Assembly (NCBI RefSeq): GCF_054482525.1
Contig: NZ_CM137006.1
DNA: 64,000 nucleotides
Direction: 5' to 3' (one strand)
Shown: one piece after another, positions 23,819 to 26,800 of the stretch
How positions within the stretch are numbered: position 1 is the stretch's first letter
Layout of the letters: each line of letters starts with the position of its first letter
Position numbers: made by a program

Positions 23819-26800
23819 TCAGCCCGCTTGCCTGCTCCAGCCGCGCGCAAATGTCTTTAAAGTTAAAAGTATGCGGCCCCATCAATACCGGAATAGCGTG
23901 TGCGGCAGCTTCCAGCGGATTATGCCCACCACGTTCAACCAGTGAACCGCCAACAAAGGCGAGATCGGCAATACCGTACAGTAACATCAACTCGCCCATC
24001 GTATCGCCAACCACAACCTGCGTGCTGGTGGAGGGGACTTCCCCTGAAGAGCGTGTGATATAGCTTAGTCCAGCCTGGCGGACAAGGTTAATCGCATCCG
24101 GGAAGCGTTCCGGATGACGGGGTACCAGGATGAGCAATAAATTCGGGAATTGCTGTAACAATGCCTGATGTGCGGCGATCACCACACTCTCTTCGCCTTC
24201 GTGAGTGCTGGTGGCAATCCATACCGGGCGGTGTGGTGCCCACTGGCGGCGCAGCGTCACTGCTTTAGCAGCCAGTTGCGGCGTTACAGAGATATCAAAT
24301 TTCAGGCTACCGGTAACGGTCAACTGATTATTTTTTGCGCCCAGCGCCACAAAACGCGCGCCATCTTCTTCATTTTGCGCAGCAATCAGTGTAATACGAC
24401 GCAGCAAGCGGCGGACGAATTTACCCAGTTTGGCGTAACCTGCGGCCGAGCGGGCAGAGAGTCGCGCGTTAGCGATCACCAGCGGAATTTTACGTTTATG
24501 TAGCGCCGCAATCAGGTTAGGCCATAGTTCGGTTTCCATAATCAACACCAGTTTAGGGTCGACTTTATTCAGAAAACGGTTGAGCGCATCGGGCAGGTCA
24601 TACGGCAGATAAACGTGCTGAACATCCTTCCCGAAAGCCGATTGTACGCGCTCCGAACCGGTTGGCGTCATGGTTGTAACGGTGATCGGTAAATCAGGAT
24701 AACGATGACGCAGCGCGCGCACCAACGGGATCGCCGCCAGAGTTTCACCGACGGAGACGGAGTGCAGCATAATGCCGCCTGGTTTTAGCGGATGGCGGTA
24801 AAAACCGTAACGTTCACCCCAGCGTTTTCGATAGGCCGGAGCCTTACGTCCGCGCACCCAGAGCCGTATCCAGATCAGCGGCTGAATAAGGTAGAGAAGG
24901 GCGGTGTAAAGCAATTCGAGCATAGTAAATAGCTGACTTATGGATGTGCTGGGGATTCTATGTATTTAGCTGTGGCTTTACCATTACTTTTCCCGTTTTT
25001 GACTTAAATAGCAATTTACCCGCCAATTCTTGCTGAACATCTATACTTTTTTTGTATTTTTATGCGATTCATTGATTTCTGCAGTACGTGCAGGAAGGAA
25101 TCGCAGAGCAACAGTAAAAGAATATAGTTGCTAATGATTTTATTTGATTGATTTCTTTATTGAAAATCAACAATGTGCTTAAAAATCATTCGGGTCGGAT
25201 TGCCGCGAAAGAAGTGATACACTAGCGCGTCAATATCAGTGCGGTATCAGTATTCAGGTAGCTGTTGAGCCTGGGGCGGTAGCGTGCTTTTTCTGCTTCA
25301 CCTTAATCGGATAATCTCAACAAAAAGAGTTACTTGTGGATAAGCCATTTCGAAGAATTTTGCTCATTAAGATGCGTTTTCATGGGGATATGTTATTAAC
25401 TACTCCCGTCATTAGTTCGCTGAAAAAAAATTACCCTGACGCAAAAATCGATGTGCTGCTTTATCAGGACACCATCCCGATCTTGTCTGAAAATCCAGAG
25501 ATTAACGCGCTCTACGGCATAAAAAATAAAAAAGCAAAAGCCGCAGAAAAAATTGCCAACTTTTTTCATCTCATCAAGGTATTACGTGCCAATAAGTATG
25601 ACCTTATCGTCAATCTTACCGATCAATGGATGGTTGCTATACTGGTTCGCTTATTAAATGCCCGTGTGAAAATTTCCCAGGATTATCATCATCGGCAGTC
25701 TGCTTTTTGGCGTAATAGTTTCACTCATTTGGTGCCGTTGCAGGGTGGAAATGTGGTGGAAAGTAACTTATCCGTGCTGACACCATTGGGACTTGATTCG
25801 TTGGTGAAGCAGACAACCATGAGTTACCCGCCTGCAAGCTGGAAACGTATGCGTCGCGAACTTGATCACGCTGGTGTTGGACAAAATTATGTGGTTATCC
25901 AACCTACGGCGCGGCAAATCTTCAAATGTTGGGACAACGCCAAGTTTTCCGCTGTGATTGATGCCTTACATGCTCGTGGTTATGAAGTCGTTCTGACGTC
26001 TGGCCCAGATAAAGACGATCTGGCCTGCGTCAATGAAATTGCCCAGGGATGCCAGACGCCACCAGTAACGGCGCTGGCTGGAAAGGTGACCTTCCCGGAA
26101 CTTGGTGCGTTAATCGATCATGCGCAGCTGTTTATTGGCGTTGATTCCGCACCGGCGCATATTGCCGCTGCAGTTAATACGCCGCTGATATCGCTGTTTG
26201 GTGCGACAGACCATATTTTCTGGCGTCCATGGTCAAATAACATGATTCAATTCTGGGCGGGAGATTACCGGGAAATGCCAACGCGCGATCAGCGTGACCG
26301 AAATGAGATGTATCTTTCGGTTATTCCGGCGGCAGATGTCATTGCTGCTGTCGATAAATTACTGCCCTCCTCCACGACAGGTACGTCGTTATGATCGTTG
26401 CTTTTTGTTTATATAAATATTTTCCCTTTGGCGGTTTGCAGCGCGATTTTATGCGTATTGCTCAGACAGTCGCCGCCCGAGGTCATCATGTTCGGGTTTA
26501 TACCCAGTCGTGGGAAGGCGAATGCCCTGATGTATTTGAACTGATCAAAGTGCCGGTTAAATCGCATACCAATCACGGGCGCAATGCGGAGTATTTTGCC
26601 TGGGTGCAAAAACATTTACGCGAACATCCCGTCGATAAAGTCGTTGGATTCAACAAAATGCCGGGGCTGGACGTTTATTATGCCGCTGATGTTTGTTATG
26701 CCGAGAAAGTAGCGCAGGAAAAAGGCTTTTTCTATCGCCTGACGTCACGTTATCGCCATTATGCCGCCTTTGAGCGGGCAACCTTCGAACAGGGCAAGCC

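What the first reader, a model, noticed from the sequence alone, without database searches (positions are those of the whole stretch)
24924..25335. ops element in the waaQ leader
An exact GGCGGTAGCGTG lies ~50 bp upstream of waaQ in a 412-bp divergent control region shared with waaA. This indicates RfaH-dependent antitermination of the long central core operon and confirms the operon boundary.
Basis: partly seen in the sequence, partly recalled or inferred. Interest (0 to 1): 0.3.

Follow-up and report, generated by a model that had tools for sequence, protein, structure and literature searches.

The report
RfaH loading site before waaQ
The motif is real: it is the well-known ops/JUMPstart signal in the transcribed leader of the E. 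coli LPS-core operon, where the factor RfaH boards RNA polymerase so that the long operon is transcribed to its end. It is correct but already textbook knowledge.

Summary
The observation and the interpretation both hold, and the feature is already known.

**Observation.** GGCGGTAGCGTG lies at 25275-25286 (+). It is the only exact match in the window to the 12-nt ops consensus GGCGGTAGnnTG. It ends 49 nt before the annotated GTG start of waaQ (25336). The waaA-waaQ intergenic region is 24924-25335, 412 bp.

**Identity of the element.** It is the 3' end of a full JUMPstart element (Rfam RF01707, 25248-25286, 55.2 bits against a gathering score of 35).

**Source.** The window is E. coli PCN033, with 4 mismatches in 64 kb. 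It carries an R1-type core operon, waaQGPOTYWVL, at 25336-34469.

**Is it transcribed?**
- Alignment to the MG1655 rirA/waaQ transcription start puts the start at 25230, so ops is +46 to +57.
- Published MG1655 Term-seq 3' ends fall on ops G10/U11, the known pause position.
- Published CFT073 ChIP-seq shows RfaH at the rfa ops site. The CFT073 intergenic region differs from the window at 3 of 412 positions, none in the leader.

**Conservation.** rfaH is intact in PCN033. The leader is present in 5424 of 5426 complete E. coli genomes. The same arrangement (ops 24-54 nt before waaQ) was found in 12 named genera.

**Only non-textbook hint.** A waaQ-specific extended RNA hairpin pairs ops with upstream sequence and is followed by a U-run.

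The parts
23646..24923 (-). waaA (Kdo transferase), the divergently transcribed neighbour
   Evidence: ORF list; RefSeq annotation of PCN033
24924..25335 (.). 412-bp waaA-waaQ divergent intergenic region
   Evidence: 3 differences from CFT073. The K-12 allele is about 88% identical, with a conserved island from the promoter to ops
25215..25223 (+). Inferred extended -10 promoter element TGaTACACT, ending 7 nt before the inferred start site
   Evidence: Position relative to the MG1655 rirA 5' end. The GTGnTACACTAG block is conserved across Enterobacteriaceae waaQ leaders and was not part of the search pattern. Inference; not mapped in this strain
25230..25301 (+). Homologue of the MG1655 RirA sRNA, the 5' part of the waaQ leader. 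25230 is the inferred transcription start
   Evidence: Alignment to rirA b4760, NC_000913.3 3808166-3808238. Reviews state that RirA and waaQ mRNA share their start site
25248..25286 (+). JUMPstart element (RF01707). Stem is 25255-25259 with 25269-25273. Upstream GGTAGC repeat at 25257-25262
   Evidence: 55.2 bits against gathering score 35. The stem pair at 25256/25272 occurs as AU, GU, UA and GC among the leaders. Aligns with K-12 rfbB and wza JUMPstarts and with the CFT073 kpsM JUMPstart
25275..25286 (+). ops element GGCGGTAGCGTG on the non-template strand. Expected pause at T11 = 25285
   Evidence: All bases shown to be needed for RfaH recruitment (C3, G4, G5, T6, A7, G8) and the pause-inducing T11-G12 are present. 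MG1655 Term-seq 3' ends map to the equivalent G10/U11
25238..25288 (+). Predicted extended leader-RNA hairpin that pairs ops with upstream AGUGCGGUAUCAGU, followed by a U-run at 25288-25292. Hypothetical
   Evidence: MFE fold. 90.9% of cells paired against 32-52% in slid controls. 17 of 21 waaQ leaders fold this way independently, whereas the rfbB and wza classes do not exceed their shuffled controls. Not recovered by RNAalifold
25325..25329 (+). Conserved Shine-Dalgarno-like AAGAG, 6 nt before the GTG
   Evidence: Nearly invariant in the cross-genus alignment
25336..26394 (+). waaQ (rfaQ), first gene of the operon, GTG start
   Evidence: The GTG and the following codons are conserved across genera
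25336..34469 (+). R1-type central core operon waaQ-G-P-O-T-Y-W-V-L: 9 co-oriented genes, gaps of -8 to 81 nt. The distal half is AT-rich, 32-38% GC
   Evidence: Annotation; composition profile; same architecture in CFT073
34478..34513 (.). 15-bp perfect hairpin between the convergent waaL and waaC: the likely distal, bidirectional terminator of the operon

Best explanation
This is the canonical ops/JUMPstart element of the waaQ (rfaQ) leader.

Proposed sequence of events:
1. Transcription starts about 45 nt upstream, at about 25230, from a promoter with an extended -10 element.
2. When RNA polymerase reaches ops, the non-template strand GGCGGTAGCGTG is exposed in the transcription bubble and the polymerase pauses at U11 (25285).
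3. The non-template strand forms a small hairpin that presents G5 and T6 to RfaH.
4. RfaH is released from autoinhibition and stays bound to the polymerase. It excludes NusG, suppresses pausing, Rho-dependent termination and H-NS-imposed arrest, and recruits the ribosome.
5. As a result the whole 9.1-kb, partly AT-rich waaQGPOTYWVL operon is expressed through to waaL.

The same leader also gives rise to the RirA sRNA.

Shown here: the motif, its strand, its position, its JUMPstart membership, its conservation, and the presence of rfaH in the strain. Taken from published experiments on near-identical alleles: the start site, the pause 3' ends and RfaH occupancy. Inferred for this strain: all of the function.
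For: - Exact ops on the strand of waaQ.
- JUMPstart covariance-model hit above the gathering score.
- ops lies at +46 to +57 relative to the MG1655 rirA/waaQ start.
- Term-seq 3' ends at MG1655 3808184 and 3808183, which are ops G10/U11, with 62,669 and 116,952 reads. U11 is the known ops pause position.
- RfaH ChIP signal at the rfa ops site and a sigma70 peak upstream of it in CFT073. CFT073 has the same R1 operon, and its intergenic region differs at 3 of 412 positions, all outside the -10-to-waaQ stretch.
- rfaH is intact in PCN033 and present in 5425 of 5426 complete E. coli genomes.
- The leader is present at full length in 5424 of 5426 genomes.
- In a sample of 120 JUMPstart/ops matches from GTDB representative genomes, 19 lie 24-54 nt before a waaQ orthologue, in 12 named genera. 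waaA was detected divergently upstream in 14 of the 19.
- The distal operon has 32-38% GC, which fits the H-NS-bound character of RfaH targets.
- Literature: the waaQ operon requires RfaH.
Against: - Nothing was measured in this strain: no start-site mapping, no RfaH occupancy, no rfaH-mutant expression.
- The simple sigma70 scan did not call the inferred promoter. It proposed TTGAAA-18-AATCAT at 25160-25189 instead. That alternative would still place ops inside the transcript.
- The invariance of ops in the cross-genus alignment is circular, because the loci were retrieved with an exact ops pattern.
- Reviews say RfaH targets lack a ribosome-binding site, yet a conserved AAGAG lies 6 nt before the GTG.
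Confidence: 0.94

Rival explanations
1. In addition to recruiting RfaH through DNA, the leader RNA forms a waaQ-specific extended hairpin. In it the ops RNA is the 3' arm, and a U-run follows. This hairpin would act as an attenuator, or as a 3'-end stabiliser that yields the short RirA-type RNA. The element would then also work at the RNA level.
For: - MFE hairpin 25238-25288 followed by U5.
- 90.9% of cells paired against 32-52% in slid controls, with both-sided changes at three pairs.
- 17 of 21 waaQ leaders fold this way independently: mean 10.9 paired nt against 5.7 when the upstream 25 nt are shuffled. The rfbB class (6.95 vs 5.88) and the wza class (1.77 vs 2.31) do not.
- The T-run is absent from the K-12 rfbB and wza JUMPstarts and from the Pectobacterium and Kosakonia waaQ leaders, which also lack the hairpin.
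- Adams et al. gave the waaQ-leader 3' end an intrinsic-terminator score of 6.28 (threshold 3.0) and found it not Rho-dependent.
- RirA binds RfaH in an ops-dependent way.
Against: - RNAalifold did not recover the hairpin and found no covariation.
- The fold of the leader as a whole is no more stable than shuffled sequences (z = 0.45).
- The structure was derived from this sequence, which biases the pair counts.
- The mapped 3' ends lie at ops U11, inside the 3' arm, not after the U-run. They are explained just as well by the ops pause.
- The sequences are phylogenetically related and few.
Confidence: 0.2
2. The 12-mer is a chance occurrence in an intergenic region and has no function.
For: Four other GGCGGTAG 8-mers occur in the window, apparently by chance: 5 sites in all against 1.6 expected, a count reached in 5 of 100 shuffles.
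Against: - An exact 12-mer is expected 0.008 times.
- Full JUMPstart match at E = 2e-10.
- Same position and orientation before waaQ in 12 named genera.
- Near-universal in E. coli.
- Experimental RfaH occupancy on a near-identical allele.
Confidence: 0.01
3. The element lies upstream of the functional waaQ promoter and is not transcribed, so it cannot recruit RfaH to this operon.
For: No start-site mapping exists for this strain. The consensus scan found no strong promoter.
Against: - The rirA/waaQ start in MG1655 lies 45 nt upstream of ops.
- RNA 3' ends at ops U11 show that the element is transcribed.
- The sigma70 ChIP peak lies upstream of ops in CFT073.
- Only 49 nt remain between ops and the GTG, and they contain no conserved promoter-like block.
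Confidence: 0.01

Closest known systems
ops/JUMPstart of the E. coli K-12 waaQ (rfaQ) leader, and the RirA sRNA (b4760)
   Same: This is the orthologous locus. The sequence from the JUMPstart 5' end through ops and the start of the T-run is identical. Position relative to the start site and to waaQ is the same, as is the divergent waaA.
   Different: The window carries the R1-type allele. The intergenic region is 412 bp against 405 bp. The leader is about 85% identical overall. The T-run is one base shorter. Downstream genes are those of the R1 core type (waaO-T-Y-W-V-L) rather than the K-12 type.
rfa ops site of UPEC CFT073, a ChIP-seq-validated RfaH target (PMC9765446)
   Same: Same R1 operon architecture and the same 412-bp intergenic region with 3 substitutions. 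None lies in the -10, leader, JUMPstart or ops.
   Different: A different strain. RfaH occupancy was measured there, not here.
JUMPstart elements of the rfb (O-antigen), wza/wca (colanic acid) and kps (group 2 capsule) operons, Rfam RF01707
   Same: Shared CAGT...GGTAGCT...AGCC.GGGGCGGTAG core, with a 5-bp stem that covaries: cAGG/CCTg here, cTGG/CCAg in rfbB and tTGG/CCAg in wza and kpsM.
   Different: - Distance to the first gene differs: 24-54 nt for waaQ, about 71-107 nt for rfbB, about 170-190 nt for wza.
- Only the waaQ leaders have the upstream segment complementary to ops and the T-run.
- CFT073 kpsM has GGCGGTAGCATA, without TG at positions 11-12.
Other polymerase-riding antiterminators loaded at a pause through the non-template strand (lambda Q at qut) and other NusG paralogs
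   Same: Works alike: a factor is loaded onto a paused elongation complex by reading non-template DNA and then travels with the polymerase. This comparison rests on general knowledge and on the discussion of sigma.
   Different: Unrelated proteins and sequences. This is a functional analogy only and was not tested here.

Membership tests
ops element (RfaH recruitment site) | 12-nt consensus GGCGGTAGnnTG, including the bases needed for recruitment (C3-G8) and the pause-inducing T11-G12 | tested here: met
   Exact match at 25275-25286. Base requirements are from Zuber et al. 2018.
ops element (RfaH recruitment site) | Lies on the non-template strand of the regulated operon | tested here: met
   The motif is on the + strand, the same strand as waaQ and the eight genes that follow.
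ops element (RfaH recruitment site) | Located in the transcribed leader: downstream of the start site and upstream of the first ORF | tested here: met
   Shown by homology, not by mapping in this strain. The MG1655 rirA/waaQ start aligns to 25230. Term-seq 3' ends fall at ops G10/U11. The sigma70 peak is upstream of ops in CFT073.
ops element (RfaH recruitment site) | The cognate factor RfaH is encoded in the genome | tested here: met
   rfaH is intact in PCN033 at 4269267-4269755. The window matches PCN033 with 4 mismatches in 64 kb. rfaH is present in 5425 of 5426 E. coli genomes.
ops element (RfaH recruitment site) | RfaH occupies the elongation complex from ops onward, and distal gene expression depends on rfaH | not testable with these tools
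   Published for CFT073 (ChIP-seq) and for MG1655. The alleles are near-identical.
JUMPstart (Rfam RF01707) | Score at or above the family's gathering threshold over the full model | tested here: met
   55.2 bits against 35, model positions 1-38 of 38.
JUMPstart (Rfam RF01707) | 5-bp stem supported by covariation | tested here: met
   Pair at columns 130/146: AU 14, GU 4, UA 2, GC 1, and none unpaired. The other four pairs are invariant.
JUMPstart (Rfam RF01707) | Lies upstream of a surface-polysaccharide gene cluster | tested here: met
   It precedes the LPS core operon.
RirA sRNA | Sequence homologous to MG1655 rirA (b4760), including ops, and sharing the waaQ start site | tested here: met
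   Aligns over 25230-25301. The core from position 19 to position 63 is identical.
RirA sRNA | Accumulates as a discrete RNA of about 73 nt that binds RfaH | not testable with these tools
   Reported for K-12 only. The Term-seq 3' ends in MG1655 are at +55/+56, not +73.
Intrinsic terminator / attenuator | Stable hairpin immediately followed by a U-tract, with RNA 3' ends just after it | tested here: inconclusive
   Hairpin plus U5 is predicted, and the published intrinsic-terminator score is 6.28. However, the consensus scan found no terminator, the fold z-score is 0.45, and the 3' ends lie within the 3' arm.

The most novel reading that the evidence does not exclude
In Enterobacteriaceae waaQ leaders, unlike rfb, wza or kps leaders, ops may be built into the 3' arm of a conserved extended RNA hairpin followed by a U-run. 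The site would then have two roles: an RfaH loading site on the DNA, and on the RNA an attenuator or 3'-end-protecting structure that produces the abundant short leader RNA. That RNA shows up as the Term-seq 3' end at ops U11, about 56 nt, rather than as the annotated 73-nt RirA. Such an arrangement would link RfaH supply to LPS-core operon output.
Probability: 0.2. Interest if true: 0.4.

Novelty: already known. Interest (0 to 1): 0.1.

Why it matters
The element explains how a 9-kb, partly AT-rich, H-NS-prone operon for the LPS outer core and the O-antigen ligase is transcribed to its end. rfaH and ops mutants have truncated LPS, are sensitive to detergents and are attenuated. For genome annotation, it correctly marks the start of the waaQ transcription unit in an R1-core pathogenic strain. 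No new biology follows from it: the waaQ (rfaQ) leader is one of the founding examples of ops/JUMPstart. The only part worth an experiment is the waaQ-specific hairpin and U-run, together with the mismatch between the mapped 3' ends and the annotated RirA.

Tried and rejected
- **Consensus promoter scan.** It did not call the inferred extended -10 promoter and offered a weak alternative (25160-25189). Not decisive either way.
- **Consensus terminator scan of the leader.** Found nothing.
- **RNAalifold on 20 leaders.** It gave a different, weak, GU-rich pairing with no covariation. It recovered neither the Rfam stem nor the extended hairpin.
- **Primary RirA paper (PMC5087721).** Not held, so start-site and RirA statements rest on the same group's reviews and on the RefSeq rirA feature.
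- **Plasmid search with the JUMPstart sequence.** It found mostly misassigned chromosomal fragments and plasmid-borne O-antigen clusters. It did not retrieve F tra or hly ops sites, so no alignment to hly or tra was made.
- **Exact GGCGGTAGNNTG in the CFT073 kps region.** No match. The kps JUMPstart was found only by the covariance model and carries GGCGGTAGCATA.
- **Sub-threshold Rfam hits.** MIR1886, istR, Leu_leader, RNAI and RsmY are ordinary terminator hairpins and were rejected.
- **The other GGCGGTAG 8-mers.** Rejected as ops sites. All are intragenic, two are on the template strand, and none has TG at positions 11-12. Intragenic ops-like sites show no RfaH signal in CFT073.
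Full report
**1. The observation**

The 12-mer GGCGGTAGCGTG is at window 25275-25286 on the + strand. 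From base composition an exact copy is expected 0.008 times in 64 kb counting both strands. It is the only exact match in the window to the ops consensus GGCGGTAGNNTG.

Four further copies of the 8-nt core GGCGGTAG exist. They are at 14920 (+), 20208 (-), 51201 (-) and 61908 (+). They lie inside yicG, coaBC, lldP and mtlD, two of them on the template strand, and none has TG at positions 11-12.

The minus-strand ORF 23646-24923 is waaA. The plus-strand ORF starting with GTG at 25336 is waaQ/rfaQ. The intergenic region is therefore exactly 24924-25335, 412 bp, and ops ends 49 nt before the GTG.

**2. Where the window comes from**

The window equals E. coli PCN033 (NZ_CP006632.1) 3983429-4047428, reverse-complemented, with 4 mismatches.

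Downstream of the leader lie nine co-oriented genes with gaps of -8 to 81 nt: rfaQ, waaG, rfaP, waaO, a GT8 glycosyltransferase, rfaY, the alpha-1,2-galactosyltransferase, a GT2 glycosyltransferase and the O-antigen ligase. I read this order as the R1 core type, from general knowledge of core-type gene orders; it was not checked against an R1 reference. The operon spans 25336-34469.

The operon ends at a perfect 15-bp hairpin (34478-34513) in the 70-nt gap before the convergent waaC. GC content falls to 32-38% in the distal half, against 50-55% in the flanks.

**3. What the element is**

The 12-mer is the 3' end of a full-length JUMPstart element: Rfam RF01707, 25248-25286, 55.2 bits against a gathering score of 35, E = 2e-10. 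The same model finds:
- the K-12 rfbB JUMPstart (60.0 bits) and wza JUMPstart (57.3 bits);
- the CFT073 kpsM JUMPstart (53.6 bits).

Aligned, these share CAGT...GGTAGCT...AGCC.GGGGCGGTAG. The second position of the 5-bp stem covaries: cAGG/CCTg in waaQ, cTGG/CCAg in rfbB, tTGG/CCAg in wza and kpsM.

**4. Is it in the transcript?**

Four lines of evidence bear on it.

- *Start site.* RefSeq MG1655 annotates the 73-nt ncRNA rirA (b4760) at 3808166-3808238 (-). Reviews by the discovering group state that RirA lies in the waaQ 5' UTR, contains ops and JUMPstart, and shares its start site with waaQ mRNA. Aligned to the window, the rirA 5' end is 25230 and ops is +46 to +57.
- *Promoter.* Seven nucleotides upstream of that position ends TGaTACACT (25215-25223), an extended -10 element. 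The block GTGnTACACTAG is conserved in waaQ leaders of many genera, and it was not part of any search pattern.
- *RNA 3' ends.* Supplementary file 3 of Adams et al. 2021 lists Term-seq 3' ends in MG1655 at 3808184 (-) and 3808183 (-). The first has 62,669 reads, Rho score 1.04 (not Rho-dependent) and intrinsic-terminator score 6.28. The second, from another condition, has 116,952 reads. Counting on the sequence, these positions are ops G10 and U11. U11 is the known ops pause position.
- *Occupancy.* In UPEC CFT073, ChIP-seq found RfaH at eight leader ops sites including rfa, with sigma70 peaks at predicted start sites upstream of ops. It found no RfaH at 34 intragenic ops-like sites. CFT073 has the same R1 operon and a 412-bp intergenic region that differs from the window at 24995, 25126 and 25193 only. 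All three are upstream of the -10 element.

**5. The trans-acting factor**

rfaH is not in the window. It is intact in PCN033 at 4269267-4269755 and present in 5425 of 5426 complete E. coli genomes.

**6. Conservation**

A 116-nt query covering the leader finds a full-length match in 5424 of 5426 E. coli genomes. There are two main alleles: at least 99% identity in 4456 records, and 80-90% in 965 records, the allele that K-12 strains carry.

Between the two alleles, the stretch from the promoter through ops is a conserved island flanked by diverged sequence.

Classifying the gene downstream of each match gave:
- 19 matches lie 24-54 nt before a waaQ orthologue, and waaA was detected divergently upstream in 14 of the 19;
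- 19 lie before rfbB;
- 22 lie before wza;
- 6 lie before a galF-like gene.

A twentieth match, in Brenneria salicis, has only a partial WaaQ hit 1.4 kb downstream and was set aside.

The 19 waaQ cases come from 12 named genera: Escherichia, Citrobacter, Silvania, Pluralibacter, Enterobacter, Pseudescherichia, Shimwellia, Kluyvera, Cedecea, Kosakonia and Pectobacterium among them.

One caveat applies. The invariance of ops in this set is circular, because the pattern required it. Four things are not circular:
- the position and orientation relative to waaQ;
- the conserved -10 block;
- the stem covariation;
- a conserved AAGAG-N6-GTG translation start.

**7. Mechanism**

The following comes from the literature, not from tests made here.
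1. ops is a consensus pause signal.
2. The non-template strand forms a small hairpin that presents G5 and T6 to the RfaH N-terminal domain.
3. RfaH is released from autoinhibition and remains on the polymerase.
4. It suppresses pausing, Rho-dependent termination and H-NS/StpA-imposed arrest, and it recruits the ribosome.

The window's ops has every base shown to matter: C3, G4, G5, T6, A7, G8, T11 and G12. A nearest-neighbour DNA fold also gives a small hairpin with loop GTAG, although its pairing differs from the C3:G8 pair discussed in the crystal-structure paper.

**8. A side observation**

The leader RNA folds so that ops (+46 to +57) plus two more nucleotides pairs with +9 to +22 (AGUGCGGUAUCAGU). 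This encloses the Rfam stem and is followed directly by a U-run.

Evidence for the structure:
- On the 21-sequence alignment, 90.9% of cells are paired, against 32-52% when the 3' partner is slid. Three pairs show changes on both sides.
- Folded independently, 17 of 21 waaQ leaders adopt it: mean 10.9 paired nt against 5.7 with a shuffled upstream segment. The rfbB class (6.95 vs 5.88) and the wza class (1.77 vs 2.31) do not.
- The U-run is missing from the rfbB and wza JUMPstarts and from the Pectobacterium and Kosakonia waaQ leaders, which also lack the hairpin.

Evidence against it:
- RNAalifold does not recover it.
- The fold is no more stable than shuffled sequences (z = 0.45).
- The structure was derived from this very sequence.
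- The mapped 3' ends lie inside the 3' arm, at the ops pause.

I rate a real additional RNA-level role at about 0.2. The mapped 3' ends (+55/+56) do not coincide with the annotated 73-nt RirA end (+73), and this remains unexplained.

**9. Verdict**

The feature is the long-known ops/JUMPstart of the waaQ (rfaQ) leader, here in its R1-core allele.

One phrase needs softening. ops does not by itself 'confirm' an operon boundary. The divergent waaA gene, the conserved promoter and the mapped start site do that, and the distal boundary is the hairpin at 34478-34513.

Novelty: already known. Interest: low.

Noticed in passing
window 25284-25285 (MG1655 3808184/3808183): Published Term-seq 3' ends in the MG1655 waaQ leader fall on ops G10/U11 (+55/+56). 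The reads are very high and the intrinsic-terminator score is 6.28. RefSeq rirA ends at +73, so the dominant mapped 3' end and the annotated sRNA end disagree.
   Followed up: partly
window 25238-25292: A waaQ-specific extended RNA hairpin pairs ops with upstream sequence and is followed by a U-run. It is predicted in 17 of 21 waaQ leaders. The rfbB and wza JUMPstart classes do not exceed their shuffled controls.
   Followed up: partly
window 25325-25372: The GTG at 25336 and an AAGAG 6 nt upstream are conserved across genera, as are the 12 codons before the ATG at 25372. The MG1655 annotation (344 aa) starts at that ATG and is probably 12 codons short. The conserved AAGAG also sits awkwardly with review statements that RfaH targets lack a ribosome-binding site.
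   Followed up: partly
window 34478-34513: A perfect 15-bp hairpin lies between the convergent waaL and waaC and is the likely bidirectional terminator. It produced a spurious sub-threshold Rfam 'MIR1886' match.
   Followed up: yes
window 24924-25335 compared with K-12 (L002 1725-2129): Divergence between the R1-type and K-12 alleles is mosaic. The first 89 nt next to waaA are identical and the middle 150 nt or so are strongly diverged. The promoter-to-ops stretch is about 97% identical, and the sequence diverges again downstream. This suggests recombination breakpoints, purifying selection on the control region, or both.
   Followed up: no
L130 29321-29359 (CFT073 kpsM leader): This JUMPstart belongs to a ChIP-validated RfaH target and carries GGCGGTAGCATA. 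It therefore lacks the TG at ops positions 11-12 that is said to be shared by validated E. coli targets.
   Followed up: no
window 14920, 20208, 51201, 61908: Four intragenic copies of the ops 8-mer core GGCGGTAG. Two are on the sense strand (coaBC, lldP) and two on the antisense strand (yicG, mtlD). None has TG at positions 11-12, and they are probably non-functional.
   Followed up: yes
window 15424-15701: Pseudogene fragments (DnaD-like and BRO family) occupy the slot between yicG and yicC, where CFT073 has an intact dinD.
   Followed up: no
window 22156-22261: A terminator hairpin after rpmG (AAAAACCUCGCUCCGGCGGGGUUUUUU) gives sub-threshold Rfam matches to istR, Leu_leader, RNAI and RsmY. 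It is an ordinary intrinsic terminator.
   Followed up: no
window about 53025-58277 (-): A 5.25-kb YadA-like trimeric autotransporter adhesin gene lies between a DUF3251 protein gene and lldP.
   Followed up: no
L129 (plasmid NZ_AP022515.1 38619-38648): A Citrobacter IncFIB plasmid carries a galF-JUMPstart-flippase-glycosyltransferase O-antigen-type cluster next to IS50R and IS3 transposase genes. This is a mobile polysaccharide locus with its own ops.
   Followed up: no
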